From Candidatus Woesearchaeota archaeon (GTDB lineage: Archaea; Nanobdellota; Nanobdellia; Woesearchaeales; 0-14-0-80-44-23), in contig JAPLZQ010000095.1 in NCBI GenBank assembly GCA_026394965.1, positions 1 to 40,791 on the forward strand: 40,791 nt of DNA, written 5' to 3'. Both the position numbers and the translations under genes were made by a program. Every line of letters begins with the position of its first letter. Positions within the stretch are counted from its first letter, which is position 1. The notes beneath the pieces were generated by a model, which was given only the letters and a program-made list of their open reading frames with translations, searched no databases and was not told the origin of the DNA. This document shows, one piece after another, positions 14,631 through 35,517 of this stretch.

Positions 14631-17480
14631 CTACTTTTTTCCGTCCCAAAGAACCTTCCAGGTGTAGATGTCCTCTCCGGTAAGCTCTTTCTGCTGGTCA
14701 AAAAGCTCAAAATGCGAAAGCCCTGCGCCGTTAAGGAAGAACAGCCGTGTGAAAATGCTCTTTGAAAGTTCCGGAGATGAGACTGTTGTGCTGTAGCCGT
14801 TGTTTGAAGAGAGCACTATTGAGTATGGGAAATCCGGATTTTCATAATGTTTCTCATCCACATCCCCTGTGCTTGTCACATACACAAACGAGTGGGGCAG
14901 AAGCCTTCCCTGCGGAACCTCTATTCCTGCATCCCTTGTTGTCAGGTTTATCACAATGCTTATTGTCTGCCCCTGAATGTTGTTCAGGCAGGTTATTGTT
15001 AAGTTGTCAGAGCTGCAGCTTCCCCCTATTGATATGTAAGCTGGCCAGGGTGAAATCCAGTTTTCATCATCCCTGCTTGTTGAAAGCGACTGAACATCAT
15101 ATACTGCCCTCTCAATCTGCTCATCTGAGTAGTTGAACTCCTCTTTCATGAATTTCTTGGCTTCCTCAACTTTTGAATTTTTTATGCTCAAAAGTATCTT
15201 TGCCTTTTCAAAATCCCATAGCCCGAAATGAGCCCACACCCCTGATTTTCCAATCATGTCTCCGCTTGTGATAAGGTAATCCTCAGGCGGGTTGCAGTGC
15301 GTCTCTTTAAGGACTCTTTCAGCATCCTCTTTTGTTATGTGCTTTAGAAGTTCTTTTTCTGCGCTGCTTCTGTCCATCATTATTATGCTTCTCAGCAGCT
15401 TGACTGACTTTTCAGTGTCATTCAGTGTGCTGTCTACTATGTCAAATGAGTCTGTGGCGCCGCAGTCAAGCATTCTGAGGACTGCAATTGCCTCATCCTC
15501 ATTTTCTGTTGCAAGTATCCTTCCAAGCCAGTATGCCTGGGGCCTGTTCTGAGTTGCCCCATCTGCTGATACAGCCCTGTCTCCGACATATTTGAACCAG
15601 TGCCCGAAATCCCACCATGAGTTTATTATTGCATCCTGGGATGAATTGTTCTTTATTTTTGTGAGAGCATCATACCATGCATCATTCATATTTGGAATGT
15701 ATCCCCTTCCTGACTCATATCCTGCTTTAATTGGGTTTATCAGCATAACCATGAAAAGCAAAAAGATTATTGCTCCGGCAATTCCCTTTTCAATTTTGAA
15801 TTCCTTTGAGGCAAAATCATTGAGCCACTTGTGGAAGCTTCCAATTGCTATTCCCACTGCAACTGCAAATGCAGGAACAAGGAGCATGCTGAACCTGCTT
15901 CCGGTAAGTGTTGCATAATATGTTCCAAAAAACCATATTATGAGAAGGATTCCTATCTTTATGTCAAAATGCCCGTGGGAATCTTTCTTGAAAAATGCGA
16001 TTATTATCCCTAAAATTGAAAGCACAAAAAACAGCCACCCTCCGACTATTGTGAGTATAGTGTCAAATGTCCCCGGATTCATTTCTGCAACAGTAAGATA
16101 AATGTTCGGCCAGAGAGCTTCATGAACAACTTCTTTTATCAGCAGGAAATTCAGCGGCTCAATTGGCGCCATGTAAAATGTTGAAAATCCAGAGAATATG
16201 CTTACAAACACGCATGAGGATAGTATAAGAGCAGCAGTCATAAAAATTGCATTCTTAAACGACTTGCTTCTGATTGCCTTTCCAATGCTTTTTTCCCTTT
16301 TGTAATTTGCAAAGACAAGGTATGCAAGGTATATTCCCATCGCGCCCATCACAAAGTCAAATATGTACCACCAGCCAGGCCAGGCAACGCTGAAAATCCC
16401 CATGAAAAGCCCGGTGAGCCCCATAAAAGCGAACCTTGCCTTGTTGTTCTTGGCTTCAAATCCCTCAATGATGCTCCACACTATAAGAATTGGGAAAACA
16501 ACATTGTATACATCTGTGTCAGAGCCAATTGTCCTTGTGATGAACATTGGGTTTACTGAAACCAGGACTGAAGTTATTACCGCGCCTGTGTTTCCGGCAA
16601 GCTTCTTCCCTATGAAGAATGCTGCAACTGCGCCTATTAATGCAAAAACGAGAGGAGTATAGAAAGACGCCTGCATTGTAGTCATGTTCCTGTTGAATGC
16701 CTTAAGCACACGATAAAGCCAGGCAATTGAATATGGATGAAGTGAAAAATAAACCGGAGCGCCCAGCGGAGCAGTCATGTGGTTGTCCCATTCAATTGTG
16801 TCATTCACAAGAATGTCGCCCTGCCTCCCGTATTTTACAATATTATCCGCATATCTCAGGAAGAAGTATGAGTCCAAATCCCCAAGGTAAGTATAGCTCT
16901 TTCCGTTAACATCATACTGGAGCTTTGCCTTGAAAAAATTGGCTGTCTCCTTAACCTGCCCTGAAATCACGCTTCCCTGCGTTTTCAAAAGCTCGCTGAA
17001 CTGCTTCTCAACCAGGAGCTGTCTGTTCTCCTCAGGAAGGTTCGGGTAAAGCGAGTTAACCTGCGCAGATATCGTGTTCCGGTAATATCCGTAAACGCTG
17101 CTCTCTGCCCAGTCATTTGTAATTGAAAGCACATTTGGCTGTATCCTTATGAAAATAGTAAGAATTATGGGTATCAAAAGCAGGAGATAGGAAATCTTTT
17201 CATTTTTAAGAAATTTGAATGCGCCCTTCCGGCTGAAATTTTCCTCATTTTCCTGCTCTTCATTTCCTGGTTTTTTTGCCCTGAAATTCCAGTTTTTCCT
17301 TTTGGCTTTTTCCGGGCGCGCTTTTGCCTCTTCTTCAGATTTTCCTCTTCTGAATGCTTTTCTCAGGTCAAATGAGAACTCATCATCTTTTGGGCTCTCT
17401 TCTTTTGTTTTTTCAGATTCAGTTTTATTCTCAATTATTTCTGCATCTATGGCATCATTTTTTCCAGCATTATCTTCCAT
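14631..17480 (-). CDS. aglB: archaeal oligosaccharyltransferase AglB (STT3 family)
   Basis: WWDFGHW (the WWDYG motif). GDLDSYFFLRY is a DxD-type first-loop motif. There are 13 or so TM helices and a soluble C-terminal domain. Confidence 0.9.
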   Translation of the reverse strand: MEDNAGKNDAIDAEIIENKTESEKTKEESPKDDEFSFDLRKAFRRGKSEEEAKARPEKAKRKNWNFRAKKPGNEEQENEENFSRKGAFKFLKNEKISYLLLLIPIILTIFIRIQPNVLSITNDWAESSVYGYYRNTISAQVNSLYPNLPEENRQLLVEKQFSELLKTQGSVISGQVKETANFFKAKLQYDVNGKSYTYLGDLDSYFFLRYADNIVKYGRQGDILVNDTIEWDNHMTAPLGAPVYFSLHPYSIAWLYRVLKAFNRNMTTMQASFYTPLVFALIGAVAAFFIGKKLAGNTGAVITSVLVSVNPMFITRTIGSDTDVYNVVFPILIVWSIIEGFEAKNNKARFAFMGLTGLFMGIFSVAWPGWWYIFDFVMGAMGIYLAYLVFANYKREKSIGKAIRSKSFKNAIFMTAALILSSCVFVSIFSGFSTFYMAPIEPLNFLLIKEVVHEALWPNIYLTVAEMNPGTFDTILTIVGGWLFFVLSILGIIIAFFKKDSHGHFDIKIGILLIIWFFGTYYATLTGSRFSMLLVPAFAVAVGIAIGSFHKWLNDFASKEFKIEKGIAGAIIFLLFMVMLINPIKAGYESGRGYIPNMNDAWYDALTKIKNNSSQDAIINSWWDFGHWFKYVGDRAVSADGATQNRPQAYWLGRILATENEDEAIAVLRMLDCGATDSFDIVDSTLNDTEKSVKLLRSIIMMDRSSAEKELLKHITKEDAERVLKETHCNPPEDYLITSGDMIGKSGVWAHFGLWDFEKAKILLSIKNSKVEEAKKFMKEEFNYSDEQIERAVYDVQSLSTSRDDENWISPWPAYISIGGSCSSDNLTITCLNNIQGQTISIVINLTTRDAGIEVPQGRLLPHSFVYVTSTGDVDEKHYENPDFPYSIVLSSNNGYSTTVSSPELSKSIFTRLFFLNGAGLSHFELFDQQKELTGEDIYTWKVLWDGKK

Positions 17481-17581: not shown

Positions 17582-18685
17582 TTAGAACGCATTTTTCAGG
17601 AAATAAATCAGGCGCGGCTCTTCAAGGAGGGCGTTTAATCCGAGGGAAAACATCCTGTCCCTGCTTTTTTCCCCAATAAGTTTATTCATCCTTCTGCTTC
17701 CAAGAATCTTTATTATCTCTTCTGTCTCCTGTTCATTGCACCTGTTGAGGATTTTTCTAACAACAAGAGAAGCGTATAAGTCGGGAAAAAGCTCTTTTGC
17801 GCACATGAGGGAATAGCTTTTCTTTTCAAGGATTGAGCGCGAGAGTATTTTCGCTGCCTTAAGCCCGGGAACAATGCCGCCGAAAGTTGTTGCCTTTACC
17901 TGCCTTGCAGAATCGCCCAAAAGGAAAACATTCCCCTTCTGTATTTTCTGGAAAGGGCTGAAAAGGGGTATCAATCCGGCATTCTTTTCAGTGCTTGTTA
18001 AAACTGAATTCCTCCAGGATTTTCCAAACACTCTCCGCAGAAATGCATTAAATTTTATTCCGGAATCGCGCTCAAATGCAACTCCAATCCTTGCTGTTTT
18101 TTCATCCAGGGGGACAATCCACCCTATTCCTTTTTTAAGAAGGAAAAAGTCAATGAAGTTCTCATTTTTGTATTTTGTGACAATCTGCGTTCCAGTTAAA
18201 AAACCGCTTCTCCGGAAAAGCCCGAAAGCGCGTGCAACGCTTGATGAAGGGCCGTCTGCCCCAACCAGCATTTCAGTGTTTATTGCTTTAATTCCTTTTT
18301 TATTCCTTATTTTCATCTCAAGCCCGCTCTTTTCAAATGTCATTCCCTCAAACCTTGAGTTTAAGTGGAATTTGGCGCCTTCTGATTCTGCCTTTTCAGC
18401 AATGCTTCTGTCAAATTTTCTCCTGTCGACAATGATATTCTCATTGACAGAAAGAGATGCATAATTTCCGCTTTCAGAAAAAACCCTTGCCTTGCCTGAC
18501 TTGTTTATTATTGAGTTCTCATCGGGTTTTGCTATCCTGTATATCTCTTCGGAGATTATCCCTGTGCACTGAACTGGGCTGCCTATTCTCTGATGCTCCT
18601 CAAAAACAGAGACCTTCTCCCCTTCCCTTGAGAGAAGGTATGCAAGCTGGCTTCCGCAAGGCCCTGCGCCGATTATGGATATCAT
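17582..18685 (-). CDS. geranylgeranyl reductase family FAD-dependent oxidoreductase
   Basis: N-terminal IIGAGPCGS dinucleotide motif, VGADGPSS, LLGDSARQV. TATA-like AAAGATATAAAAG on the minus strand lies about 25 nt upstream. Confidence 0.85.
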   Translation of the reverse strand: MISIIGAGPCGSQLAYLLSREGEKVSVFEEHQRIGSPVQCTGIISEEIYRIAKPDENSIINKSGKARVFSESGNYASLSVNENIIVDRRKFDRSIAEKAESEGAKFHLNSRFEGMTFEKSGLEMKIRNKKGIKAINTEMLVGADGPSSSVARAFGLFRRSGFLTGTQIVTKYKNENFIDFFLLKKGIGWIVPLDEKTARIGVAFERDSGIKFNAFLRRVFGKSWRNSVLTSTEKNAGLIPLFSPFQKIQKGNVFLLGDSARQVKATTFGGIVPGLKAAKILSRSILEKKSYSLMCAKELFPDLYASLVVRKILNRCNEQETEEIIKILGSRRMNKLIGEKSRDRMFSLGLNALLEEPRLIYFLKNAF

Positions 18686-18794: not shown

Positions 18795-18810
18795 CGAAAG
18801 ATTTATATAT
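18795..18810 (+). promoter_or_regulatory. BRE/TATA promoter (CGAAAGATTTATATAT)
   Basis: Purine-rich BRE-like CGAAAG followed by TTTATATA, 75 nt before the ATG at 18884. It is flanked by inverted GTGAC/GTCAC. The core AAGATTTATATAT recurs at 25081 and 28281. Confidence 0.6.
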
Positions 18811-18883: not shown

Positions 18884-19906
18884 ATGAATAAGTTCAAGAA
18901 AGGATTAGTTTCACTCATTGCAGCTGCAACAATATGCGCCGGAGGAGTTTTTTCCCAGCCAGCACACACAATAAAAAGCGAGCAGCAGGATGTTCCGTAT
19001 GAGACAATTGAAGAGACTCTTGGCGGATTCACAGGCGGATGGAGCAATGAATCTGAGATGACTCCTGAGGAAAAGGAGAGCTTTGGAAGATACACAAAGG
19101 CATTTGAGACATTCATGACTCCTGAACTCTTAATTGAACTTACAAAGAATTATTCTGATATGGAGAAGCTTAACCTCACCCTTTCAGACGGCGACAAGAA
19201 AAACGGAGAATTCATCAACGGAAAGGAAACGGTTTATTTCATAAACAACGGCAAAGAGTCCCCTCTTGTGTGCAAGATTGAGGATGACAAGGGCAATTTC
19301 TATTACGGATTCTCAAACCTTTCAAAATGCCTTTCAGATGGCATTGAGAAGCAGGTTCATGACACAGCATCAAGAAAGACAGAGGAGGAATTCTCGAAGC
19401 TTGAATGCGCATGCAACGGCGGAGTGAATTTCAATTACAATTTTGCAAGGGCGCTAATCAACGGCGAAGGGCTGTACAAGCCGCGCCTTGACTCAATTGT
19501 TTCTGCAATTGAGCTTGCCACAACTGACGCAACAGGACTACAGAGGAAAAATGCACTTCTGAAGCTTTCTGACGGAATTTACTCATACCCGGCTAATTAT
19601 GAAATCAATGATGAAAGGACATTCCGGCTTTACACCGGCGATGATGTTAACATTGCAATGAGGATGGATACAGGATATTTTGATGCTCAAAAGAAAGTTT
19701 TCTGCGGGCACATATCATTTTACAACAAGACAGACAACACAAATAAATTCAAGCAGAAGATAAGCGCTGCAAATTACACTTATACAGGGCAGGAGGGGCA
19801 AATCCATTTCAATCTGGCAAAGGACATTATGGAATGCGCAACTCAGGAATACCTTGAAAGGCATCCTACAGAGGACTTTACAACAAACAGCCCCAAGGCA
19901 GAGTGA
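18884..19906 (+). CDS. secreted protein of unknown function
   Basis: N-terminal MNKFKKGLVSLIAAATICAGGVF is signal-peptide-like. No recognisable domain. It is the first gene of a three-gene, translationally coupled set. Confidence 0.75.
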   Translation: MNKFKKGLVSLIAAATICAGGVFSQPAHTIKSEQQDVPYETIEETLGGFTGGWSNESEMTPEEKESFGRYTKAFETFMTPELLIELTKNYSDMEKLNLTLSDGDKKNGEFINGKETVYFINNGKESPLVCKIEDDKGNFYYGFSNLSKCLSDGIEKQVHDTASRKTEEEFSKLECACNGGVNFNYNFARALINGEGLYKPRLDSIVSAIELATTDATGLQRKNALLKLSDGIYSYPANYEINDERTFRLYTGDDVNIAMRMDTGYFDAQKKVFCGHISFYNKTDNTNKFKQKISAANYTYTGQEGQIHFNLAKDIMECATQEYLERHPTEDFTTNSPKAE

Positions 19907-19917
19907 GGCGAAAAAAA

Positions 19918-20090
19918 TGAGTATTGATGATAAGATTGATTGGCGTGTTGGTATGGCTTCGGTAAGCATACTAAGAAATTTCGTTGAGGAATACATAAAA
20001 GCCAGCACGATAAAAGGCAAGTATGAAGGTAAGTTTGAAGCACTAATCCAATATTCAGAACTGACAGATTATTTAAAAAAGAACGAGTGA
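19918..20090 (+). CDS. small soluble protein (57 aa), unknown function
   Basis: The ATG at 19918 is preceded by GAGTGAGGCGAAAAAA (stop plus SD). The same cassette precedes the next gene. The listed ORF start at 19854 would overlap the upstream gene. Confidence 0.55.
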
Positions 20091-20107: not shown

Positions 20108-23100
20108 ATGAAAAGCAAAATCTCAAAATCATTACTCTTCATATTCATGTTTGCAGCAGTTTTGCTGCTTTCAGCAGGATTTGCATCTTCAGCATGCGAT
20201 CCATTAGTTGACCCCGACTGCGGGGATGACCCAATTGAGCCGCCATGCATAGGATGCTATCCAACACCCACCCCAACGCCAACTCCAACGCCTATTGTGC
20301 TTTGCGGAAACGGAGTAATAAACACAGGGGAGCAGTGCGAGATGCCTGGAACATCAAACAATAATTACTGCGTCCAGTCAATGCATCAGTGCTCAGGGAA
20401 TAAATACGGAAGCAGGGACATGTACGGAAACTGCAACTCAGCATGCGGATGCTCCAATGATGCATTCACATATTCCTGTTCTTTCGGGAACTGCGGCTCA
20501 GAGTGTGATGCAGCCCATTCCTGCGCCTCAACTGACTGCGACTACCTTGACGGATGCCAGGGAAATTATTATTATGATTACCATGATGTTTCAAACAGCT
20601 GCACAGGAGACTGCGGCTGCACAGAAAATTCATGCACAGCTTACACTGCCACGGTAAACGATCCAAGATGCGTTGAGTGCAATGTTGATTCGGACTGCGA
20701 CAGCAGGGACAAAACTTACTGCTCAGGAGATTCTGTTGTGAGCGTAGAGGGAAAGTGTGTGAGCCACAAGTGCACAGATTCTTCACCATCAATTGTTGAG
20801 AACTGCAATTCCCTTGACAGAGATTACTGCGAGGGAACATCAATAAAGAATGATGACGGATACTGCTCATTTGGCGAATGCAAGGTAACAAAGACAAATG
20901 TGCTTAATTGTAATGATGGGCTTTTCTGCAATGGAGTTGAGTCCTGCAGTGCGGGAAACTGTGTTTCTGGAAGTTCTGTTGATTGCTCAGCAAATGATAT
21001 TTTTGGAATTTCATCTTGCAATAATGTTCCTGATGGCAATTCTTTGACTTGGGATTACCGGGCTTCTTTTGATTCAACATGCAACGAAGCAAGTGATTCG
21101 TGCACTGCTGGTATTTATTCAATAAGCCATTCGTGCAGTGTTAATTCCTGCGGAGCAGAGTGTGATGCTGCCCATGGATGTAGTGCTACTGATTGTGATT
21201 GGAAGGATGGTTGTGTTGGGAAGGATTATTATGATTATTCAGATGTTTCTAATAGTTGCTTGGGTGGTTGTTCTTGCACTGATAATGTGTGTGCTGCTCC
21301 GGTGATTTCATATAATGATGCCAGGTGTGGTGAGTGTGTTTCTGATTCTCAGTGTGATTATTTGGATTCTGATTTTTGCAGCGGGGATTCTGTTTTTCAT
21401 GTTGAGGGGAAATGCATAAATTATGATTGTGTTTCAGGGACAGCTGCTTTGGTGCAGAACTGCAATTCCCTTGACAGGAATTTCTGCGAGGGAACATCAA
21501 TAAAGAATGATGATGGTTATTGCGCTTCAGGGGCTTGTTATGTTTCTACATCTACTGTTATGAATTGTAATGATGGGCTTTTCTGCAATGGGGTTGAGTC
21601 CTGTAGTGCTGGAAACTGTGTTTCTGGAAGTTCTGTTGATTGCTCATCAAATGATATTTTTGGAATTTCATCTTGCAATAATGTTCCTGATGGTAATTCT
21701 TTGACTTGGGATTATAGGGTTTCTTTTGATTCAACTTGTAATGAGGCAAGTGATTCGTGCACTGCTGGTATTTATTCAATAAGTCATTCATGCAGTGTTA
21801 ATTCCTGCGGAGCAGAGTGCGATGTGGTTCATGGATGCGCAGACACATACTGCGACTGGAAGGACGGTTGCGTTGGAAAGGACTATTACGATTATTCCGG
21901 AGTAGAGAATTCATGCCTTTCTGGCTGCGCATGCGAAAACAACGTATGCAGGGCTCCAACAATATATTATGATGATGAAAGATGCAGCGACCATTGCCTT
22001 AATGACAATGACTGCAATTACCTTGATTCAGATTTCTGCAGCAGCGATTCTGTAATGCACATTGATGGAATGTGCATAAGCGGAATCTGCTCAAGCAGCA
22101 CTCCATCTCTTGTAGGGGACTGCACACTGCTTGACAGGAACTTCTGCGAAGGAAGCATTGTCAAGGAGGATACTGGCTACTGCGCAAATGCAGAGTGCAG
22201 GATAACCACATCAATTCTAATGAACTGCAATGATGGGCTTTTCTGCAATGGGGTTGAGTCCTGCAGTGCTGGGAACTGTGTTGCTGGAAGTTCTGTTGAT
22301 TGTTCGGGTAATGATGTTTTTGGGGTTTCTTCTTGTAATAATGTTCCTGATGGCAATTCTTTGACTTGGGATTATAGGGCTTCTTTTGATTCAACATGCA
22401 ACGAGGCAACTGACTCCTGCACAGCAGGAAGTTCTGCAATAAGCCATTCGTGCAGCGTTGATTCCTGCGGAGCAGAGTGCTCAAACGGGCAGGTTGAAGT
22501 AAGGAGCTGCACATACGGGGGAATCCAGAGCAGGAGCTGCACAGACAGCTGCATCTGGGGAATCTGGAGCAATTGCGAAAATGAGGGCGTATGCACACCA
22601 GGAACAAAGGAAAGCAGGGAATGCGGCTACTGCGGCACATCTGAACGGGTATGCCTTGAAAATTACCAGTGGGGCTTATGGGGCTCATGCTCAGGCGCAG
22701 GAGTATGCGTTTCAGGATTAGTTGACTATGAAATGTGCGGAAAAGGCGGCTCAAGATTCAGGACATGCGATGATTCATGCTACTGGGGCGCATTCAGCAA
22801 CTGCACAGATGAAAAGGAGTGCTATCCAGGAACAATTGAAGAGGAAAAATGCCTTATCTTTGGGGTAAGGAAAAGGATATGCCAATCAAACTATTACTGG
22901 GGCTCATGGAGTTCCTGCACTTTCCCAAGAGGGGACATTGCAATAAACCAGCTTCAGATAATAAATGAGGACTGCATCCAGCCAGGAGAGGATTTGACTG
23001 CGCTTGTTGACTTCAGCATGCTTGGATACCATGAGCAGGAAGTCAAGATAACAGCAGTCATACCAGACCTTTCCTTAAGAAGCAGGATAGGTCCGATTGA

Positions 23101-23275
23101 TGTTGAGGCAGACGGCGAAATCTCAAGGGTTTTGCTCCTGACTCTCCCAGAGGACACGCCCGAGGGAGTTTATGACGTTAGATTCACTATCAATGACGAC
23201 ATAAGAAGGGTAAAGCACAGAAGCATCATAGTGAAAAAAACCTGCTGCAGAAGTTGCTCATGCAGCAGCTGCTGA
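20108..23275 (+). CDS. giant cysteine-rich secreted repeat protein
   Basis: Domain order:
- signal peptide;
- (PT)6 linker;
- CGNGVINTGEQCE motif;
- three ~219-aa Cys-rich repeats;
- four short WGxWSxC repeats;
- a CARDB-like C-terminal domain;
- a CCRSCSCSSC tail.
No TM anchor. Confidence 0.9.
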   Translation: MKSKISKSLLFIFMFAAVLLLSAGFASSACDPLVDPDCGDDPIEPPCIGCYPTPTPTPTPTPIVLCGNGVINTGEQCEMPGTSNNNYCVQSMHQCSGNKYGSRDMYGNCNSACGCSNDAFTYSCSFGNCGSECDAAHSCASTDCDYLDGCQGNYYYDYHDVSNSCTGDCGCTENSCTAYTATVNDPRCVECNVDSDCDSRDKTYCSGDSVVSVEGKCVSHKCTDSSPSIVENCNSLDRDYCEGTSIKNDDGYCSFGECKVTKTNVLNCNDGLFCNGVESCSAGNCVSGSSVDCSANDIFGISSCNNVPDGNSLTWDYRASFDSTCNEASDSCTAGIYSISHSCSVNSCGAECDAAHGCSATDCDWKDGCVGKDYYDYSDVSNSCLGGCSCTDNVCAAPVISYNDARCGECVSDSQCDYLDSDFCSGDSVFHVEGKCINYDCVSGTAALVQNCNSLDRNFCEGTSIKNDDGYCASGACYVSTSTVMNCNDGLFCNGVESCSAGNCVSGSSVDCSSNDIFGISSCNNVPDGNSLTWDYRVSFDSTCNEASDSCTAGIYSISHSCSVNSCGAECDVVHGCADTYCDWKDGCVGKDYYDYSGVENSCLSGCACENNVCRAPTIYYDDERCSDHCLNDNDCNYLDSDFCSSDSVMHIDGMCISGICSSSTPSLVGDCTLLDRNFCEGSIVKEDTGYCANAECRITTSILMNCNDGLFCNGVESCSAGNCVAGSSVDCSGNDVFGVSSCNNVPDGNSLTWDYRASFDSTCNEATDSCTAGSSAISHSCSVDSCGAECSNGQVEVRSCTYGGIQSRSCTDSCIWGIWSNCENEGVCTPGTKESRECGYCGTSERVCLENYQWGLWGSCSGAGVCVSGLVDYEMCGKGGSRFRTCDDSCYWGAFSNCTDEKECYPGTIEEEKCLIFGVRKRICQSNYYWGSWSSCTFPRGDIAINQLQIINEDCIQPGEDLTALVDFSMLGYHEQEVKITAVIPDLSLRSRIGPIDVEADGEISRVLLLTLPEDTPEGVYDVRFTINDDIRRVKHRSIIVKKTCCRSCSCSSC
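20477..22450 (+). repeat. three in-frame tandem repeats of 657, 657 and 660 nt
   Basis: Units start at the Cys codons 20477, 21134 and 21791, and the array ends before 22451. Each unit begins CS(F/V)xxCG(S/A)EC and ends SISHS/AISHS. Confidence 0.95.
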
Positions 23276-23418: not shown

Positions 23419-23436
23419 CCGAAAGTTTTATATAGG
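23419..23436 (+). promoter_or_regulatory. BRE/TATA promoter (CCGAAAGTTTTATATAGG)
   Basis: About 140 nt upstream of the ATG at 23577, which implies a long 5' UTR. A second TATA-like CTATATAA lies at 23400. Confidence 0.5.
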
Positions 23437-23576: not shown

Positions 23577-24824
23577 ATGAAAAATTTTTGGTTAATTTTG
23601 TTTGTTGTTGGAATTATAACAACAGTATTTGTTAGCGCACTGCCAACAGTAGAACAGCTGAAGATAAACGGCGATGTCTTTGAGACTGGAGACACATTAG
23701 TTGTTGAAAGAGGAGAGACACTTGACATCAAGGTTAAGCTTCAGGCAGAAAATGTTGAGAAGAATATAGAAGGAGATGCAGTTATTCTTGGTTATGAATA
23801 CAATGACCATGAATCAATCTCAGACTCAACTCACCTATTCGACATGGAAGCAGGCGATACTGTCTACAAGACTATGCAGATAAAGGTGCCAGAGAAGACA
23901 GAAAAGGACTTCTACGACTTGAGAATCAGGTTCGGCACAAGGACAGAAGACGCATTTGAAGGAAGATACAGGCTTCACATTGTTGAATCAAGACATGATG
24001 TTGTCATAAAAGACGTCGTTTTGAGCCCAGAAGGAACAGTAAAGTCCGGAAGAGCTTTGCTCGCAATTGTAAGAGTGAAGAACATGGGCGCAAAGGACGA
24101 AGACGGAATAAAGATCAAGGTTTCAATACCAGACCTTGGAATCTCAGGCTCTGAATACATTGACGAGCTCAAGGCAGGAGAGTCAACATCCTCAGAAGAG
24201 ATATACCTCAAGATACCAACATGCGTTGCATCAGGAAGTTATGCAGTAAAGGCATCAATTGAGTATGATGAATCTTATGAAGAATCAACATACACAACTG
24301 AAATTGACATAGTTGAAGAGGATGTCTGCAAGGCAAAGGCTACAACTGTTGAAGAGAAGACAGAAATAATGATAGGCGCAGTAAGCCAGTCTGTCAAGAG
24401 AGGAGGAGCAGGAGCAGTCTATCCAATCACAATAAAGAACGCAGGAAACTCAGCACAGACATATATAGTGTCAGTTGCAGGAGTAGATGACTGGGCATCA
24501 GTCCAGATATCACCTAGCGCTGTGTTCATCGTTCAGCCAGGCGAGCTGAAATCAGCTTATGTCTACCTATCCCCTAGAGAGAACGCAGCTGAAGGCGAAC
24601 ACGTGTTTAGCATAAAGGTTGGATCAGCAGGCGAGGAGAAGCAGATTCCGGTCAGTGTAGTGGTCTCAGGAAAGCCAGCCAACTCTTGGACAAATGTCAA
24701 GAGAGGGCTTGAAATTGCTGGGATCGTCTTGGTTGTTTTGCTTGTAATATTGGGCATCATACTTGCCTTAAACAGGCTTGGCGGCAAAGAGCACAAGGAA
24801 GAAGAGAACCAGACCTACTATTAA
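23577..24824 (+). CDS. membrane-anchored CARDB-like surface (S-layer-like) protein
   Basis: Signal peptide, three beta-sandwich-like modules (VRVKNMGAKDEDGIKIKVSIPDLGISGSEY...; ITIKNAGNSAQTYIVSV...), and a C-terminal TM helix GIVLVVLLVILGIILAL. Confidence 0.85.
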   Translation: MKNFWLILFVVGIITTVFVSALPTVEQLKINGDVFETGDTLVVERGETLDIKVKLQAENVEKNIEGDAVILGYEYNDHESISDSTHLFDMEAGDTVYKTMQIKVPEKTEKDFYDLRIRFGTRTEDAFEGRYRLHIVESRHDVVIKDVVLSPEGTVKSGRALLAIVRVKNMGAKDEDGIKIKVSIPDLGISGSEYIDELKAGESTSSEEIYLKIPTCVASGSYAVKASIEYDESYEESTYTTEIDIVEEDVCKAKATTVEEKTEIMIGAVSQSVKRGGAGAVYPITIKNAGNSAQTYIVSVAGVDDWASVQISPSAVFIVQPGELKSAYVYLSPRENAAEGEHVFSIKVGSAGEEKQIPVSVVVSGKPANSWTNVKRGLEIAGIVLVVLLVILGIILALNRLGGKEHKEEENQTYY

Positions 24825-25205: not shown

Positions 25206-26906
25206 ATGGGCAAAATTTCAAGTGAAAAATCCAGCAAGAAAAGTCTTATTTTGATTCCGCTTATCGTCATGATTCTTATATTCTTTTCATCAATCGCATC
25301 TGCAGCCCTGTCTGATTTCTCAGCATATTCAAGCAACGCAGAGATAAGGATAAATTCCTGCAGTGTTTTCACAGACACAATAAAATTCCGAAACAACGGA
25401 AATGAGATAGTTACATTCAAGCTTGGGCTGTCTGGTTCAGCATCGGGATTTTCAGTGCTTACGCCAGGAGACTTCTTCCTCCTTCCAGGAGAATCAAAGG
25501 AGGTATACTCCTTCATAAGCCCGGGCTGCGAGAATGCAGGAAAATACTCTCTTAAAGTAATTATTGATACTAACTTCGGCACCAAGGAATTGAGCCAGGA
25601 GATAATTGTCACAAAGCCATCCAACCTGGAGCTCTCTGTTGCTGAAAGCTCAATTGAGTCCTGCTCAAATGAGAGTGCAGTCTTTGAATTCACATTAAGA
25701 AACACAGGAACATTCAAGGAGCATTACACCTTTGGGACAAGAGGGCTTTTCGGCAAGTCATCCCTTGACAGGAAAGAGGCATGGCTCATGCCAAATGAAA
25801 CTGCAAAGATAGCCCTTAATTTCACCATAGGAAAGGCAGGGAAATATGAGTCAACTTTCATTGCAAAATCTGAAAATTCAGGGCTTTCTTCTGAAATCCC
25901 ATTAAAGATAACTCTCAATAAATGCGGAGTCCAGAAAAGCATTATTACAAGAATAGGAGAGATGCTTAAGGGAATCGCAAAATTACTTAAAATAATAATT
26001 ATTGCGCTTCTCATACTGATAGCTGTTATAATCCTGCTTGTCCTTTTAATCAGGAAATTCATTCCCTTCTTAAGGAATAAGCTTGCAGAAAGGAAAATGA
26101 AAAAGGCAGAGGAAAAAGCGCAGGAGCCTTATTACAAGCCGATTGTGGGAAAGAAAGAAAAGAACGTCCTAAAGGCGAAATCAGTCGCCAAGGCAGAAAA
26201 GACGCTTAAGCCAAAGGCTGCTAAGCCAAAGGTATCAGAAAAGCCAATAAAGGAAAAGCCAGCTGAAAAAATGAGGATTGACTGGCTGAAATGGATTGTG
26301 GTATTCCTTTGGATAGCGCTGATTGTTTTTGCCATTCTCTACTTTGTGGGATTTTCCAATGTCAAGGCAGGAATCTCCGATGCAGCAGAATCTGTAAAGA
26401 ATTTCTTTGCAGAAATTTTCAAGAGCCTCAAGCTTTTCTTTGCAAATGTTTTTGCAAAGGCAGTCAAAAGCCCTGAGAAAGAGGCAATTAGCCAGAACCT
26501 TTCAGGGAAAAATGCCTCTGGTGGTATAATTGTTCCTGCTGAAAATGCAACTGCGCCAAAGCCAGTTGAATCATCCAATAAAAGCGGCGGAATAAAGCCA
26601 ATGCTCACAATAAACAACACTGGCGCAGGAAATGCAACTGAAAGTGCAACTCCAAACGCTTCAACTGCTCCAAAACAGAATGGAACAGCAGCAAAGGAGA
26701 GTCCAATTCCAAGCCCGGTTCAGAAGGAAAGCCCTGCAGCAAACAAGACGCAACTGCCAAAAACTAATTCAAAGGCAAAGGATTTCATAACGTCTGCATG
26801 GGAGTATGTAAAGCTCTACCTTAATTACATAGTTCTTGGAGTCGCCCTGACAATAGTTTTCATAATATTCATGAATGTTTCAGAGAACAGGGCAAAGAAA
26901 AAGTAA
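25206..26906 (+). CDS. multi-pass surface protein with CARDB-like domains, Lys-rich loop and sequon-rich segment
   Basis: N-terminal TM or signal peptide and two beta-sandwich-like modules. These are followed by a TM helix, a KPK/KEK-rich loop, a second TM helix, an N-x-S/T-rich segment and a C-terminal TM helix. Confidence 0.8.
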   Translation: MGKISSEKSSKKSLILIPLIVMILIFFSSIASAALSDFSAYSSNAEIRINSCSVFTDTIKFRNNGNEIVTFKLGLSGSASGFSVLTPGDFFLLPGESKEVYSFISPGCENAGKYSLKVIIDTNFGTKELSQEIIVTKPSNLELSVAESSIESCSNESAVFEFTLRNTGTFKEHYTFGTRGLFGKSSLDRKEAWLMPNETAKIALNFTIGKAGKYESTFIAKSENSGLSSEIPLKITLNKCGVQKSIITRIGEMLKGIAKLLKIIIIALLILIAVIILLVLLIRKFIPFLRNKLAERKMKKAEEKAQEPYYKPIVGKKEKNVLKAKSVAKAEKTLKPKAAKPKVSEKPIKEKPAEKMRIDWLKWIVVFLWIALIVFAILYFVGFSNVKAGISDAAESVKNFFAEIFKSLKLFFANVFAKAVKSPEKEAISQNLSGKNASGGIIVPAENATAPKPVESSNKSGGIKPMLTINNTGAGNATESATPNASTAPKQNGTAAKESPIPSPVQKESPAANKTQLPKTNSKAKDFITSAWEYVKLYLNYIVLGVALTIVFIIFMNVSENRAKKK

Positions 26907-28567: not shown

Positions 28568-28762
28568 ATGAATGCGCTAAAAATTCAACAAATGCCCTAC
28601 AAAAAGATTGTCTGGCAGGAAACCCCCCAGTCAGTGAGGGTTATCCAGGGGATTTATTCAGAGGAAGGCGACTTTGTGAGGGTAAAGGGCGATTACAAGG
28701 AAGTCCTCATAAGAAAGGACAGGATAATTTCAATTGAACACAAGCAAGCGAGGGGTGATTAA
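28568..28762 (+). CDS. small soluble protein (64 aa), unknown function
   Basis: SD-like GGGAGTGAT ends 5 nt before the ATG at 28568. The track lists GTG 28559; ATG 28562 is also possible. The stop lies 1 nt before the TTG start of the next gene. Confidence 0.6.
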   Translation: MNALKIQQMPYKKIVWQETPQSVRVIQGIYSEEGDFVRVKGDYKEVLIRKDRIISIEHKQARGD

Positions 28763-28763
28763 T

Positions 28764-29684
28764 TTGAAAACCAAGCAAGCAATGAAGGCATTAGCAGTAT
28801 TAATCCCTGTGGCTTTCATATTATATTTCTGGCTGGCGTCCTTCCTGCTCTTTTCAGGAGGGGCTATTGCCGCCACGTATTGGGATGTAAACGCAACTGT
28901 CAATGTGACAAATGTGGCTTCAAATGTCACTTTAGTGACAGTTGATGACAATACCCCATCACCGCCCAACCAGATAGACCTCACTGCAGGAGGGACAACT
29001 ACAGTATACTGCAACGGCACAATAAATGACACAAACGGATATGCAGACATAGCCTCAGCATCAGCCAAGCTTTATGATAATGTTAGTGCAACTGCAACAA
29101 GCGCTGACAACAACGAAACACATTACACTAATGGAAGCTGCTCGCTTGACGTTGGTTCAGGGATAACGAGGAATGCAGTGTGCGCATTTAGCCTGCTCTA
29201 CTACTCAAACAACCAAAGCTGGATATGCAATATAACCGCACTTGATTTAGACAGCGCATCTAGCTCAGGAGTTGATGGAACAGCTGTCAATTTGCTCCTC
29301 GCGCTGAATATATCAAACAACATAATTAACTATGGGAACCTTGCGCCAGATGAAACTTCAGCATCAGGCGCGACAGAGAACATCACAAACCATGGCAACA
29401 CCCAGATTGACCTCAAATTGAACGGCACTAATATGGCGTGCAGCAGCGTAGGAAGCATAAATGTGGAAAGGCAGAGATACAATGTTACCGGAACAGATGA
29501 GGCATATGCCACACTGAAAAACCTCACTGGAACAGCAGCAACAACCACCACATTTGATCTGGTGAAGAGAACAGATGCACTGGGGCAGGACAGCAAGAGG
29601 GTTACATACTGGAGAATTCAGGTTCCTCTCGGTGTAAAAGGCAGGTGCGACGGCAATGTGACATTTGCGGCGATTGCAGGATAA
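28764..29684 (+). CDS. sequon-dense secreted glycoprotein, short paralogue (candidate fibre/surface subunit)
   Basis: SD GGGGTGAT precedes TTG 28764; the alternative start is ATG 28782 (MKALAVL...). There is an N-terminal hydrophobic helix followed by GGAIAATYWD. I count 16 N-x-S/T sequons. The C-terminal ~250 aa are paralogous to the end of the 678-aa protein. Confidence 0.85.
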   Translation: MKTKQAMKALAVLIPVAFILYFWLASFLLFSGGAIAATYWDVNATVNVTNVASNVTLVTVDDNTPSPPNQIDLTAGGTTTVYCNGTINDTNGYADIASASAKLYDNVSATATSADNNETHYTNGSCSLDVGSGITRNAVCAFSLLYYSNNQSWICNITALDLDSASSSGVDGTAVNLLLALNISNNIINYGNLAPDETSASGATENITNHGNTQIDLKLNGTNMACSSVGSINVERQRYNVTGTDEAYATLKNLTGTAATTTTFDLVKRTDALGQDSKRVTYWRIQVPLGVKGRCDGNVTFAAIAG

Positions 29685-30393: not shown

Positions 30394-32430
30394 GTGGGAA
30401 GTTCCGGTTTTGAATTCTTTACTGATGCAATAAATGTTACTCCCTCCACAGTTGGAAGCTGGACCGCTGTTGATGTTTCTTCTTATGTTCCAAGCGGGGC
30501 AACAGGAGTTCTTCTCGCTTTTGTTAATAATGGGGCTGCAAACTACATGATTGTTGCAAGGCATCCTGACAGCACGGATAATTTTTACACTGCAAGCACC
30601 ACTGATGTAAGGATAACATCGCAAATATACACTGTAACTTCAATAAATAGCAGCAGAATTTTTGAAGCAGCCAGAGAAAATAGCGCTTGTAATATATACC
30701 TCTTGGGATACACTGATGAAGAATTTGGCCTGTTTACAAATATGGTTAACATTACAAGTCTTTATTCAGGAACAGGAACCTGGCAGGATATGAATGTGAG
30801 CAGTTATGTTCCGGCAGATGCAAAGGGAATAATACTTAGGGTTTATTCTTCAACAGCTGCAAACGTAATTGTTGCAAGAGCTGATGGGAGCACTACAAAC
30901 TGGAATGATTCTCAGGTTATTGCACAGGGCTGGTACACAATAATAATAAAAAACAACAATCAGGTTGTTGAAGGTTATCGCAATTCAGCAAATGGACGCT
31001 TTTTTCTTATAGGATATATAAATGGGACAGCTCCTGTAACAATGTTTACAGACCCTTATGATGTTTCAACAGGCACTGCAGGCAGTTGGGTAAATACTGA
31101 TGTTGGAGGTTATACAAGCACTATTGCAGATGGGGCAATCCTGGTAAGAAAGAATACGGCAAACTCTGTTAAGGCAGGGCAGTCAAGAACTGTGGGAAGC
31201 ACTAATAACTGGTATTCGTCTTCAGATATAAGAAATTATATGGCTCATTGGGAATTTAGCGGACTTAATGGGACACAGTGCTTTCAGCAGAAGATAGAAG
31301 CAAATACCCAGGATTATTATATTATTGGATATGCTGAACCAGAAATTCCCCTAGCGATAAATTTTTCAAACATCACAAGTTCAGAAAATAATTTTTACTA
31401 CAACGCAACCCTTCTCGGCTGGTGCAATGCGACCCAGCCGGACATGCAGAATGTCAGTTACTATTACAAATGGTATTTGAATGGAATCCTTAACAGCACA
31501 GGGCAGACCGCATATTACCCTCCAGAAATATTAGTAAATATTGCAAACATAACCTCAGATAAACTTTCAATCGGGCAGAATTGGACTCTTGAGTGCACTG
31601 CTTATGACGGAATCGTTAATTCCTCAGCGCTCAATTCAACAGAAATAACGATTGTTGACATAAATTCGCTGCCCAATATCACTTCAATATTTGTGGATGA
31701 CGAAACATTTTCCCCTGCAGGCGAGATAGACCTTATTGCAGGAGATTTAAGGCAGGTGCTCTGCAACGGGACTGCTGATGACCCAGATGGCTTCTCTGAC
31801 ATTGACAATGTAACAGCAGTATTTTATGCGAGCGGAAACGGAACATTGCCCACAGACCCAGAAAACAACAACACCCTTTACCAAAACAATTCCTGCTCAC
31901 TATCTGCAGGATATGACACAACAAAAAAGGACTTCAACTGCTCATTTTCGCTTTTCTACTATGCCCAGAATGGGACCTGGACATGCAATGCAACTGTTAA
32001 TGATACAAAATCAGAAGCTTCATCATCTATAGCAACTTCAAACGTAAACAATCTCATTGCCCTCAATGTATCCTCGCTTGAAATTAATTATGGAAATCTC
32101 GCAGCAGGAGGCGAGTCTGCATCTTCAGTTGTTTTTTACATAACGAACCTTGGAAACACAAAAATTGACCTTTCATTAAACGGAACAAACATGAGCTGCG
32201 CAATAGGTGCAATAGGCGCATCATATCAGCATTACAACATAACCGGGACAGACCAGGCATATTCCCAGATGAAAGCGCTTTCAAATTCACCCTTCCTTTC
32301 CTCGAACTTTGACCTTAATAAGAGAATCACAGCTGATTCCGACAGGACAACATACTGGAGAATTCAGGTTCCTTCGGGAGTAAAAGGAAAATGCACAGGA
32401 GTAATAAGCCTTTCAGCTCAGCAGGGCTAA
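30394..32430 (+). CDS. sequon-dense secreted glycoprotein, long paralogue (start uncertain)
   Basis: The first canonical start is GTG 30394. The frame is open from 30301 and there encodes a signal-peptide-like LKIKTNFFFGLVLIEIFVLLTLFQAKSVVGT. The protein has three ~100-aa N-terminal modules. Its C-terminal ~250 aa are shared with the 316-aa protein. I count 31 sequons. Confidence 0.85.
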   Translation: MGSSGFEFFTDAINVTPSTVGSWTAVDVSSYVPSGATGVLLAFVNNGAANYMIVARHPDSTDNFYTASTTDVRITSQIYTVTSINSSRIFEAARENSACNIYLLGYTDEEFGLFTNMVNITSLYSGTGTWQDMNVSSYVPADAKGIILRVYSSTAANVIVARADGSTTNWNDSQVIAQGWYTIIIKNNNQVVEGYRNSANGRFFLIGYINGTAPVTMFTDPYDVSTGTAGSWVNTDVGGYTSTIADGAILVRKNTANSVKAGQSRTVGSTNNWYSSSDIRNYMAHWEFSGLNGTQCFQQKIEANTQDYYIIGYAEPEIPLAINFSNITSSENNFYYNATLLGWCNATQPDMQNVSYYYKWYLNGILNSTGQTAYYPPEILVNIANITSDKLSIGQNWTLECTAYDGIVNSSALNSTEITIVDINSLPNITSIFVDDETFSPAGEIDLIAGDLRQVLCNGTADDPDGFSDIDNVTAVFYASGNGTLPTDPENNNTLYQNNSCSLSAGYDTTKKDFNCSFSLFYYAQNGTWTCNATVNDTKSEASSSIATSNVNNLIALNVSSLEINYGNLAAGGESASSVVFYITNLGNTKIDLSLNGTNMSCAIGAIGASYQHYNITGTDQAYSQMKALSNSPFLSSNFDLNKRITADSDRTTYWRIQVPSGVKGKCTGVISLSAQQG

Positions 32431-35516: not shown

Positions 35517-35517
35517 C

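What the first reader, a model, noticed from the sequence alone, without database searches (positions are those of the whole stretch)
20108..23275. 1055-aa extracellular protein with about 12 percent cysteine and a modular, eukaryote-like Cys-rich architecture
The protein has these parts in order:
- a signal peptide;
- a (PT)6 linker (20261-20293);
- a CGNGVINTGEQCE motif, resembling the Myxococcus-type cysteine-rich repeat as I recall it;
- three ~219-aa repeats with about 30 Cys each, including NCNDGLFCNGVESCSAGNCVxGSSVDCS;
- four short Trp/Cys repeats;
- a CARDB-like domain;
- a CCRSCSCSSC tail.
It has no membrane anchor. Proteins this disulfide-rich are rare in archaea. The design resembles adhesins or variant surface proteins, which makes it a plausible host-contact or matrix protein for an episymbiotic archaeon.
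Basis: partly seen in the sequence, partly recalled or inferred. Interest (0 to 1): 0.65.

Follow-up and report, generated by a model that had tools for sequence, protein, structure and literature searches.

The report
Cysteine-rich partner of archaeal surface-layer protein
This gene of a tiny freshwater archaeon (Woesearchaeota) encodes a secreted, cysteine-packed rod that most likely sits on the cell surface, held by a conserved end domain to the membrane-anchored putative surface-layer protein encoded next door, which makes it a candidate for what these presumed symbionts (the lifestyle is not tested here) show to the outside world.

Summary
ORF 20108-23275 encodes 1055 aa with 122 Cys (11.6%): a signal peptide, a PT linker, three 219/219/220-aa repeats (28 Cys each), four ~38-aa Trp/Cys hairpin repeats, a CARDB-fold C-terminal domain (CTD) and a Cys tail. 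It has no membrane anchor.

New findings:
- **The gene fills a conserved slot.** In Woesearchaeota the order is AglB, geranylgeranyl reductase, unknown secreted gene(s), a CTD-bearing protein, then a ~420-aa membrane-anchored "putative S-layer protein" (NF033506-like). All 26 CTD genes seen in context sit directly upstream of that gene.
- **The body is variable.** Most relatives have PKD/Ig repeats there. A minority, including this gene, have Cys-rich modules.
- **The CTD is large and unmodelled.** The family has 1721 clusters at E<=1e-10, is almost always at the extreme C-terminus, and has no Pfam or NCBIfam model.
- **The repeat fold is unmatched.** It has no match in the PDB or BFVD.
- **Glycosylation sites are avoided.** The protein has 1 N-X-S/T sequon against ~14 expected, while neighbouring surface proteins are enriched.

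Best reading: the variable, unglycosylated, disulfide-stiffened outer partner of a two-gene envelope module, analogous to SlaA/SlaB. A host-contact role is plausible but untested. I rate it a new variant of a known kind, interest ~0.6.

The parts
14631..17480 (-). AglB/STT3 oligosaccharyltransferase. It marks the conserved envelope locus.
   Evidence: Pfam STT3 2e-28. It is syntenic in L001, L083, L084 and L085; in L002 the gene in that position is cut by the contig end and has no Pfam call, and L004 was retrieved through its AglB match.
17582..18685 (-). Geranylgeranyl reductase family gene, a conserved neighbour.
   Evidence: TIGR02032 6e-49. Homologues lie beside the module in most loci.
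18796..18809 (+). BRE/TATA-like motif GAAAGATTTATATA, 75 nt before the 340-aa ORF. It is the likely promoter of the unit that includes the Cys-rich gene.
   Evidence: The motif occurs 9 times against 2.3 expected, mostly just upstream of genes. None lies between 18810 and 20107.
18884..19906 (+). 340-aa secreted protein of unknown family (UP340), upstream in the same direction.
   Evidence: N-terminal hydrophobic segment. No Pfam or NCBIfam hit. Homologues end 2-9 nt before the Cys-rich gene in L001, L002 and L004.
20108..20194 (+). Signal peptide (aa 1-29).
   Evidence: Lys-rich start, hydrophobic core aa 9-21, then SAGFASSA. No predictor was run.
20195..20293 (+). Four-Cys cap (aa 30-51) followed by the PT linker (aa 52-62, PTPTPTPTPTP).
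   Evidence: Read from the sequence. The cap is shared with P0004.
20303..20506 (+). N-terminal 10-Cys module starting CGNGVINTGEQCE (aa 66-133); it overlaps the start of repeat 1, so the natural module boundary follows CG.EC.
   Evidence: It is 48-61% identical to at least 13 tandem units of P0007, which passes Pfam DUF4215. There is no direct Pfam or NCBIfam hit.
20453..21109 (+). Cys-rich repeat 1 (aa 116-334, 28 Cys).
21110..21766 (+). Cys-rich repeat 2 (aa 335-553, 28 Cys).
   Evidence: AF2 gives pLDDT 77.7, rising to 86-96 for residues 20-150, mostly beta-hairpins. No PDB or BFVD fold match.
21767..22426 (+). Cys-rich repeat 3 (aa 554-773, 28 Cys).
   Evidence: The last ~70 codons of each repeat are 87-97% identical in DNA, against 50-70% for the rest.
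22466..22927 (+). Four ~38-aa Trp/Cys repeats (within aa 787-940).
   Evidence: Each is predicted as a beta-hairpin with pLDDT ~80. They are shared only with P0002-P0005 and a deltaproteobacterial protein, P0083. No Pfam hit.
22928..23242 (+). C-terminal CARDB-fold domain (CTD, aa 941-1045), ending ..RRVKHRSIIV.
   Evidence: The family has 5019 representatives at E<=1e-3. Of 132 top hits, 117 end within 3 aa of the C-terminus. Foldseek matches 2kl6 and 3idu, both CARDB. It aligns to aa 139-231 of the next gene at E 2e-6. CTDs hit positions 367-458 of NF033506.
23243..23275 (+). Cys tail CCRSCSCSSC plus the stop codon.
   Evidence: AF2 confidence is low here. Cys tails co-occur with Cys inside the CTD: 15/17 against 18/136.
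23421..23434 (+). BRE/TATA-like motif GAAAGTTTTATATA, ~143 nt before the downstream gene.
23577..24824 (+). 415-aa putative S-layer protein (SL): signal peptide, Ig-like domains and a C-terminal transmembrane anchor.
   Evidence: NF033506 PACE-CTERM-PROT 2.6e-29, 102.4 bits against a cut-off of 110. Pfam CARDB, NPCBM_assoc and FixG_C. TM segment aa 373-404. 141 homologues of 412-460 aa in Woesearchaeota/Nanoarchaeota.
25206..26906 (+). 566-aa Ig-like membrane protein, a frequent third member of the locus.
   Evidence: Homologues follow SL in L001, L002, L004, L038, L043, L045, L047, L051, L067, L078 and L082.

Best explanation
The gene encodes the variable, outward-facing partner of a conserved two-gene cell-envelope module of Woesearchaeota.

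Proposed mechanism, step by step:
1. The protein is exported by the Sec route through its signal peptide (inferred).
2. Outside the cell its ~120 cysteines pair up and pin stacks of short beta-hairpins into a stiff, elongated body. This is inferred from invariant Cys columns, even Cys counts and the AF2 models.
3. It has no anchor of its own. Its strictly C-terminal CARDB-fold domain docks it, non-covalently, onto the ~420-aa membrane-anchored putative S-layer protein encoded immediately downstream. That protein contains a homologous domain. This step is inferred from synteny and homology and has not been shown.
4. The Cys tail probably staples back onto the CTD (inferred).
5. The body is kept free of N-glycans. 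It forms the outermost protein surface of the cell, a spike or canopy that contacts the environment or a host (speculative).

In most relatives the body at this slot is built of PKD/Ig repeats. In this lineage it is built of Cys-rich modules.
For: - **Real, conserved gene.** There are 104 homologues and nearly all 28 Cys per repeat are invariant.
- **Export and no anchor.** The only hydrophobic segment is N-terminal.
- **Directional sequon avoidance.** N-X-S/T occurs once against 13.8+-3.2 expected, while the reversed S/T-X-N occurs 19 times. A conservative test counting one repeat copy gives P = 0.007. ORFs 25206, 28734, 30394 and 33756 in the same window are enriched (z +3.8 to +5.6), and AglB lies 2.6 kb away. 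This makes sense only for a protein exposed to the oligosaccharyltransferase.
- **Synteny with close relatives.** The order GGR, UP340, Cys-rich gene, SL, DN566 is identical in L001, L002 and L004, with AglB also called upstream in L001.
- **Synteny across the group.** In 80 Woesearchaeota loci, 22 of 30 complete SL genes have a CTD-bearing gene directly upstream on the same strand. No CTD gene was seen anywhere else in those loci.
- **Independent check.** Four CTD proteins chosen by CTD profile alone all sit directly upstream of a 422-440-aa SL homologue.
- **The CTD is the constant part.** It has 1721 clusters at E<=1e-10. It is terminal in 117 of 132 top hits and within 25 aa of the end in 13 more. 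The attached bodies range from 85 to 2800 aa and 0-11% Cys.
- **CTD is homologous to an SL domain.**
- **SL has the anchor.** It has a C-terminal TM segment and matches NCBIfam 'putative S-layer protein'.
- **Fold.** The CTD is CARDB-like. The body is beta-hairpin rich with confident AF2 cores.
- **Tail.** Cys in the tail correlates with Cys in the CTD.
Against: - There is no experimental or co-folding evidence that the CTD binds SL. Adjacency could reflect co-regulation within a surface-gene island.
- SL scores 102 bits, below the NF033506 cut-off of 110. 'S-layer' is itself only a putative label, and no DPANN S-layer structure has been resolved (PMC11329633).
- 8 of 30 SL genes lack an upstream CTD gene.
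- Bodies at the slot vary from ~135 to ~1940 aa, which is odd for a lattice-forming subunit.
- The strict C-terminal position and the conserved basic end motif (RRVKHR) would also suit a sorting signal.
- Disulfide bonding is inferred, not shown. The habitat is sediment and probably low in oxygen, and no disulfide-forming gene is in the window.
- No genome-wide census of CTD genes was possible.
Confidence: 0.5

Rival explanations
1. The CTD is a sorting or secretion signal rather than a docking domain. A dedicated machinery would recognise it at the extreme C-terminus and perhaps remove it, as happens with the type IX secretion CTD of Bacteroidota. The Cys-rich body would then be released or attached in some other way.
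For: The CTD ends within 3 aa of the C-terminus in 117 of 132 representatives. Its last strand is conserved and basic..RR[VIT][KR][HY]R.[IF].[VI]. It is a ~105-aa beta-sandwich attached to very diverse bodies.
Against: No candidate machinery is encoded in the conserved locus. The CTD is homologous to an internal, non-terminal domain of SL. Its constant neighbour is a structural membrane protein, not an enzyme. The proteins already carry Sec-type signal peptides.
Confidence: 0.15
2. The protein is a free-standing adhesin or matrix protein for host contact. Its position next to SL would reflect only shared regulation in a surface-gene island.
For: The body is hypervariable between related genomes. 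The family is modular and shuffled. Sequons are avoided, which fits a bare binding surface. The organism belongs to DPANN, whose cultivated members are episymbionts (PMC11329633).
Against: The protein has no anchor of its own and no known adhesin domain. All 26 CTD genes seen in context are next to SL, which is hard to explain by co-regulation alone. This rival overlaps with the best explanation on function and differs only on attachment.
Confidence: 0.2
3. The protein is an extracellular metal-binding or redox-buffering protein whose cysteines bind metals instead of forming disulfides.
For: Some homologues are named 'putative metal-binding motif-containing' or 'MopE-related' and carry PF11617. 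The protein has 11.6% Cys, is rich in Asp, and comes from sediment.
Against: This protein does not match PF11617. Cys counts are even: 122 in total and 28 per repeat. The spacing is invariant, as in disulfide frameworks. AF2 gives confident hairpin stacks without metals. His is scarce at 1.3%.
Confidence: 0.05

Closest known systems
SlaA/SlaB two-component S-layer of Sulfolobales
   Same: Two adjacent genes. One encodes a large, anchor-less, sequence-variable outer protein. The other encodes a ~400-475-aa partner with a C-terminal transmembrane anchor (own knowledge; SlaA/SlaB are discussed in PMC11329633). The gene order, large gene first and then the anchor gene, is the same.
   Different: No sequence or fold relationship was found; the top 50 Foldseek hits contain no SlaA or SlaB. 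SlaA is heavily N-glycosylated (own knowledge), whereas this protein avoids sequons. The body here is swapped between PKD-type and Cys-rich types among relatives. Lattice formation has not been shown.
Cell-wall-protein families that share an anchoring module with the S-layer protein (Clostridioides difficile CWB2 proteins; SLH-domain proteins)
   Same: A constant domain is shared with the S-layer protein and joined to variable functional parts (own knowledge).
   Different: In those families there are many paralogues per genome, scattered around the chromosome. Here every CTD gene seen in context is the single gene directly upstream of SL. The CTD has a CARDB fold, not CWB2 or SLH.
CARDB domain (Pfam PF07705; P. 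furiosus PF1109, PDB 2kl6 and 3idu)
   Same: The same beta-sandwich fold: TM 0.68 normalised to the target and rmsd 2.8 A over 112 columns. Some family members reach weak CARDB or NPCBM_assoc HMM hits.
   Different: This CTD does not reach any Pfam threshold. It is strictly C-terminal and has a conserved RRxxHR end motif.
Myxococcus cysteine-rich repeat (Pfam DUF4215 / TIGR02232), with the Dictyostelium CTDC repeat and the MopE motif
   Same: Short disulfide-type modules beginning CG[DN]G....E.C and C[ND]DG.FCNG.E.C. Homologues of this protein carry these Pfam families. The N-terminal module is homologous to the units of P0007, which passes DUF4215.
   Different: No module of this protein reaches these models, even when scanned piece by piece at E<=10. 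The 219-aa composite unit has no match in the PDB or BFVD.

Membership tests
Myxococcus cysteine-rich repeat (Pfam PF13948 DUF4215 / NCBIfam TIGR02232) | A match to the family HMM at or above the curated cut-off. | tested here: not met
   No hit at E<=10 for the whole protein or for aa 30-134 scanned alone.
Myxococcus cysteine-rich repeat (Pfam PF13948 DUF4215 / NCBIfam TIGR02232) | Homology to sequences that are accepted members. | tested here: inconclusive
   aa 62-133 align at 48-61% identity (E down to 8e-27) to at least 13 units of P0007. P0007 as a whole scores 30.5 bits against a cut-off of 27 for DUF4215. The link is transitive only.
CARDB (Pfam PF07705) | A match to the family HMM at or above the cut-off. 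| tested here: not met
   This CTD gives only FixG_C at E 0.056. Among 20 CTDs, 2 hit CARDB (best 3.9e-4) and 10 hit NPCBM_assoc (best 2.9e-5).
CARDB (Pfam PF07705) | A CARDB-type seven-strand beta-sandwich fold. | tested here: met
   AF2 gives pLDDT 80-97 for the CTD. Foldseek matches 2kl6 (TMt 0.68, rmsd 2.8) and 3idu (TMt 0.55-0.57).
MopE-type putative metal-binding motif (Pfam PF11617) | A match to the family HMM. | tested here: not met
   No hit. The motif is present only in some homologues.
Thrombospondin type 1 repeat (Pfam PF00090), considered for the Trp/Cys repeats | A match to the family HMM, with the WSxW...CSxTCG order of motifs. | tested here: not met
   No hit for aa 787-940 at E<=10. 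Here the Trp motif lies at the end of the unit, not the start.
NCBIfam NF033506 PACE-CTERM-PROT, putative S-layer protein (tested on the downstream gene 23577-24824) | A whole-protein score at or above the cut-off of 110 bits. | tested here: not met
   102.4 bits, E 2.6e-29, covering profile positions 287-621 of 627. This is a close relative that falls just under the cut-off.
SlaA/SlaB-type two-component S-layer | Adjacent genes encoding a large anchor-less outer subunit and a smaller subunit with a C-terminal TM anchor. | tested here: met
SlaA/SlaB-type two-component S-layer | Sequence or fold homology to SlaA or SlaB. | tested here: not met
   No SlaA or SlaB chain appears among the Foldseek PDB hits shown for either model. 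No PDB sequence hit.
SlaA/SlaB-type two-component S-layer | Physical complex and two-dimensional lattice on the cell. | not testable with these tools
   This needs cryo-ET, biochemistry or multimer prediction.
Type IX secretion C-terminal domain | A T9SS machinery in a diderm bacterium, with CTD cleavage. | not tested
   The organism is an archaeon and T9SS belongs to diderm bacteria (own knowledge). No scan for T9SS components was made beyond the Pfam scan of the window's ORFs, which showed none. Only the strict C-terminal position is alike.

The most novel reading that the evidence does not exclude
Woesearchaeota, and perhaps other DPANN archaea, build their outer envelope from a conserved membrane-anchored protein plus one dedicated partner. 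The partner's body is a swappable cassette, either PKD/Ig-type or Cys-rich, joined to an undescribed CARDB-fold docking domain. This hypervariable, glycan-free partner would be the determinant of host or surface specificity.
Probability: 0.3. Interest if true: 0.8.

Novelty: new variant of a known kind. Interest (0 to 1): 0.6.

Why it matters
A recent cryo-tomography study states that no S-layer structure has been obtained for any DPANN member (PMC11329633). How these ultra-small, presumably host-dependent archaea recognise and hold on to partners is an open question.

This locus gives a concrete and widely conserved pair of genes to test. One partner is constant and membrane-anchored. The other is extremely variable and carries a recognisable C-terminal domain.

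That domain can serve as a search handle. It pulls the presumed outermost surface protein out of any Woesearchaeota genome.

The Cys-rich body has no structural relatives in the PDB or BFVD. Its avoidance of N-glycosylation sites, next to heavily sequon-rich neighbours, is a simple and testable signature of a functionally bare surface.

Tried and rejected
- **Family scans of the protein.** Pfam and NCBIfam scans of the whole protein and of four separate pieces gave nothing meaningful.
- **Fold and PDB sequence searches for the repeat.** Foldseek of the repeat model against the PDB and BFVD gave no hit with E<0.5 and TM at most 0.18. The PDB sequence profile searches were also empty.
- **Single-protein genome scan.** Scanning GTDB genomes with the whole protein found no relative.
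- **CTD alignment scans.** The word-indexed homologue search with the CTD profile returned only short fragments and was uninformative.
- **Literature.** Searches for DPANN/Woesearchaeota with cysteine-rich, disulfide, surface proteins and PACE-CTERM found no description of this family. The Asgard 'cysteine-rich' paper concerns small viral nucleases and is irrelevant.
- **N-terminal lipoprotein anchor.** I rejected this. The residues before Cys30 (ASSA-C) do not fit a lipobox, and P0002 and P0003 lack the motif.
- **Cys tail as a separate anchor.** I rejected this because tail Cys co-occur with Cys inside the CTD.
- **Disulfide-forming genes.** None were found in the window.
- **Laying public contigs on the locus.** Related populations at 85-99% identity exist in four freshwater or sediment studies. 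The contigs are too fragmented to say anything about strain-level variability of the gene.
Full report
**1. The observation.** ORF 20108-23275 (+) is real. It encodes 1055 aa from the first ATG after an in-frame stop.

- It holds 122 Cys (11.6%), 13.7% Ser and 9.4% Asp.
- The only hydrophobic stretch is aa 3-31. A Sec-type signal peptide and the absence of a membrane anchor are therefore both plausible.
- The PT run is PTPTPTPTPTP (aa 52-62).
- Three tandem repeats of 219, 219 and 220 aa (aa 116-773) carry 28 Cys each and are 60-74% identical.
- Four ~38-aa Trp/Cys units follow, then a ~105-aa domain, then the tail TCCRSCSCSSC.

**2. Anatomy of the Cys-rich body.** A profile of the three repeats finds the unit, whole or in pieces, in most of the 104 database homologues. 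The pieces occur independently.
- Profile positions 1-75/110, 75-150 and 150-218 behave as separate sub-modules.
- The last sub-module (CNDGLFCNG.E.C...) is the most widespread and is also found in bacterial proteins.
- In an alignment of 19 full units, nearly every Cys column is invariant.
- AF2 on that alignment gives pLDDT 77.7, rising to 86-96 for residues 20-150, with mostly short beta-hairpins.
- Foldseek finds nothing comparable in the PDB (best E 1.2, TM at most 0.15) or in BFVD. A sequence profile finds no solved relative.
- No Pfam or NCBIfam model matches the protein, whether whole or cut into four pieces.
- The N-terminal module (aa 62-133, starting CGNGVINTGEQCE) is 48-61% identical to at least 13 tandem units of homologue P0007, and that protein passes Pfam DUF4215.
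- That alignment also shows that the natural module boundary lies after the CG.EC motif. This explains the truncated repeat start (SAISHSCSVDSCGAEC) after repeat 3.
- At the DNA level the last ~70 codons of the repeats are 87-97% identical, while the rest is 50-70%. This points to gene conversion or very strong constraint on that sub-module.

**3. The C-terminal part.** AF2 of aa 774-1055 gives pLDDT 82.
- Each Trp/Cys unit forms a hairpin, and aa ~941-1045 form a seven-strand sandwich.
- The best single-domain Foldseek hits are the CARDB domain of P. furiosus PF1109: 2kl6 with TM 0.68 and rmsd 2.8 A, and 3idu.
- Among 20 homologous C-terminal domains, 10 touch NPCBM_assoc and 2 touch CARDB weakly.
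- 'CARDB-like' is therefore right at the level of fold and superfamily, but no curated model covers the domain.

**4. The CTD is the constant part of a very large family.** The CTD lies at the extreme C-terminus of 23 of the 104 homologues.
- A CTD profile searched against 1.84 billion representatives finds 5019 proteins at E<=1e-3 and 1721 at E<=1e-10.
- Of 132 top hits with a significant single CTD match, 117 end within 3 residues of the C-terminus and 13 more within 25.
- The end motif is conserved: ..RR[VIT][KR][HY]R.[IF].[VI].
- The proteins are 85-2800 aa long, have 0-11% Cys, and mostly carry N-terminal signal peptides.
- Their bodies are PKD, He_PIG, Big_9 or cadherin-like repeats, or Cys-rich motifs.
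- One is named an S8 peptidase of a Nanoarchaeota archaeon.

**5. Context.** The window is a cell-envelope island.
- It contains AglB/STT3, a geranylgeranyl reductase, glycosyltransferases, nucleotide-sugar enzymes and several secreted Ig-like proteins.
- AglB relatives in GTDB genomes are overwhelmingly Woesearchaeota/Nanoarchaeota, with best identities of 58% and 48%.
- Related DNA occurs in freshwater sediment and lake metagenomes.
- The gene directly downstream (23577-24824, 415 aa) has a signal peptide, Ig-like domains and a C-terminal transmembrane anchor.
- That gene matches NCBIfam NF033506 'putative S-layer protein' at E 2.6e-29 and 102 bits, just under the cut-off of 110.
- Its family is length-conserved at 412-460 aa and found in Woesearchaeota/Nanoarchaeota. 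One member is named 'putative S-layer protein' by NCBI.
- The CTD of the Cys-rich protein aligns to aa 139-231 of this neighbour (E 2e-6). Other CTDs hit positions 367-458 of the same NCBIfam model.

**6. The slot.** The three closest relatives show the same order: GGR, a ~340-aa unknown secreted gene, the Cys-rich gene, SL, a ~500-aa Ig-like gene and a permease. AglB is also called upstream in L001.
- Among 80 Woesearchaeota loci fetched around AglB, 30 hold a complete SL gene with room upstream.
- In 22 of those 30, the gene immediately upstream on the same strand carries the CTD. No CTD-bearing ORF was found anywhere else in those loci.
- The body at that slot is Cys-rich (10-12% Cys) in 5 loci and Cys-poor (0-4%) in 17. 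Of the 20 slot proteins scanned, 12 carry PKD domains, and He_PIG and Big_9 are also frequent.
- As an independent check, four CTD proteins chosen only by the CTD profile were looked up. All four lie directly upstream of a 422-440-aa SL homologue. STT3 is upstream in three of them and the reductase in two.
- In total, all 26 CTD genes seen in context are the upstream neighbour of SL.
- A BRE/TATA-like motif, GAAAGNTTTATATA, occurs 9 times in the window against 2.3 expected.
  - It lies before the 340-aa ORF (18796) and before SL (23421), but not before the Cys-rich gene.
  - The Cys-rich gene is therefore probably co-transcribed with the upstream ORF, while SL has its own promoter.
  - This is read from the sequence only.

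**7. Sequon avoidance.** The protein has 73 Asn, 145 Ser and 57 Thr, yet only one N-X-S/T sequon against 13.8+-3.2 expected from shuffles.
- The reversed pattern S/T-X-N occurs 19 times.
- Counting one repeat copy only, the result is 1 against 6.6 expected (P = 0.007).
- Several homologues show the same pattern: P0006 0/14.9, P0026 0/11.4 and P0033 0/8.3.
- A few homologues are enriched instead: P0008, P0022, P0036 and P0039.
- In the same window, the secreted ORFs 25206, 28734, 30394 and 33756 are 2-3 times enriched (z +3.8 to +5.6).
- A directional depletion next to an AglB gene argues that the protein is exposed to the oligosaccharyltransferase and is selected to stay free of N-glycans.

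**8. The tail.** Cys-containing tails beyond the CTD are rare.
- They occur in 17 of 153 CTD proteins examined, and they co-occur with Cys inside the CTD: 15/17 against 18/136.
- Fisher's test gives 5e-10, not corrected for relatedness.
- One other cluster, P0113, has a similar NCCRECSCC tail.
- The simplest reading is that the tail is stapled to the CTD by disulfides and is not a separate anchor.

**9. Interpretation.** The best-supported reading is a two-gene envelope module.
- One partner is a constant, membrane-anchored ~420-aa protein.
- The other is a variable, anchor-less partner whose only constant part is the CTD. The CTD is homologous to a domain of the anchor protein.
- This works like SlaA/SlaB of Sulfolobales, but no homology to them was found.
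- Whether the variable partner forms a lattice or decorates one cannot be decided here.
- Docking of the CTD on SL is inferred and not shown. A sorting-signal role for the CTD is the main alternative.
There is no direct evidence for it.
- A metal-binding role is unlikely. Cys counts are even, spacing is invariant, there is no MopE match and His is scarce.

**10. Novelty.** Cys-rich repeat proteins of DPANN archaea exist in databases as 'hypothetical' or 'MopE-related'. I found no paper describing them, the CTD or the slot. A recent cryo-ET study states that no DPANN S-layer structure has been obtained (PMC11329633). I rate the finding a new variant of a known kind: surface display through a constant domain shared with an S-layer protein.

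Noticed in passing
window 19920-20090 (+): A 56-aa ORF is preceded by the same GTGAGGCGAAAAAA-ATG context as the Cys-rich gene. It fills the 201-nt gap that is only 2-9 nt in the three closest relatives. It has no Pfam hit.
   Followed up: partly
window 25206-26906, 28734-29684, 30394-32430 (+) and 33756-35603 (-): Four secreted or membrane proteins are 2-3 times enriched in N-X-S/T sequons (13 vs 4.9, 17 vs 6.7, 31 vs 14.6, 15 vs 6.6). This is the opposite of the Cys-rich protein. ORFs 28734 and 30394 also share a similar C-terminal region.
   Followed up: partly
window, 9 sites including 2744, 4808, 7189, 18796, 23421, 25079, 28279 and 40433: The motif GAAAGNTTTATATA, which looks like an archaeal BRE plus TATA box, occurs 9 times against 2.3 expected. 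It mostly lies 25-145 nt upstream of gene starts.
   Followed up: partly
window 20799-21098, 21456-21755, 22116-22415: The last ~300 nt of each repeat are 79-97% identical in DNA, while the rest of the repeats is 50-70% identical. This suggests gene conversion or very strong constraint on that sub-module.
   Followed up: partly
window 20260-20292: Contigs from two other metagenomes break at the PT linker and continue with different Pro/Thr-coding runs. The linker length probably varies between strains.
   Followed up: no
window 4096-4467 (-) and 5037-5963 (+): A ParE-like toxin ORF (E 3.6e-4, below the cut-off) and a Fic/DOC family ORF lie inside the glycosylation gene region.
   Followed up: no
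loci L003, L005, L008, L009 and others: Many GTDB contigs that carry this Woesearchaeota-type locus are titled 'uncultured Methanosarcinales archaeon'. The label looks unreliable.
   Followed up: no
loci L083-L086, L001, L002, L004: One or two co-directional genes with no Pfam family (331-741 aa) end 1-64 nt before the CTD gene in the seven loci with gene calls (1-9 nt in five of them, 45 and 63 nt in L083 and L086). The module may have more than two components.
   Followed up: partly
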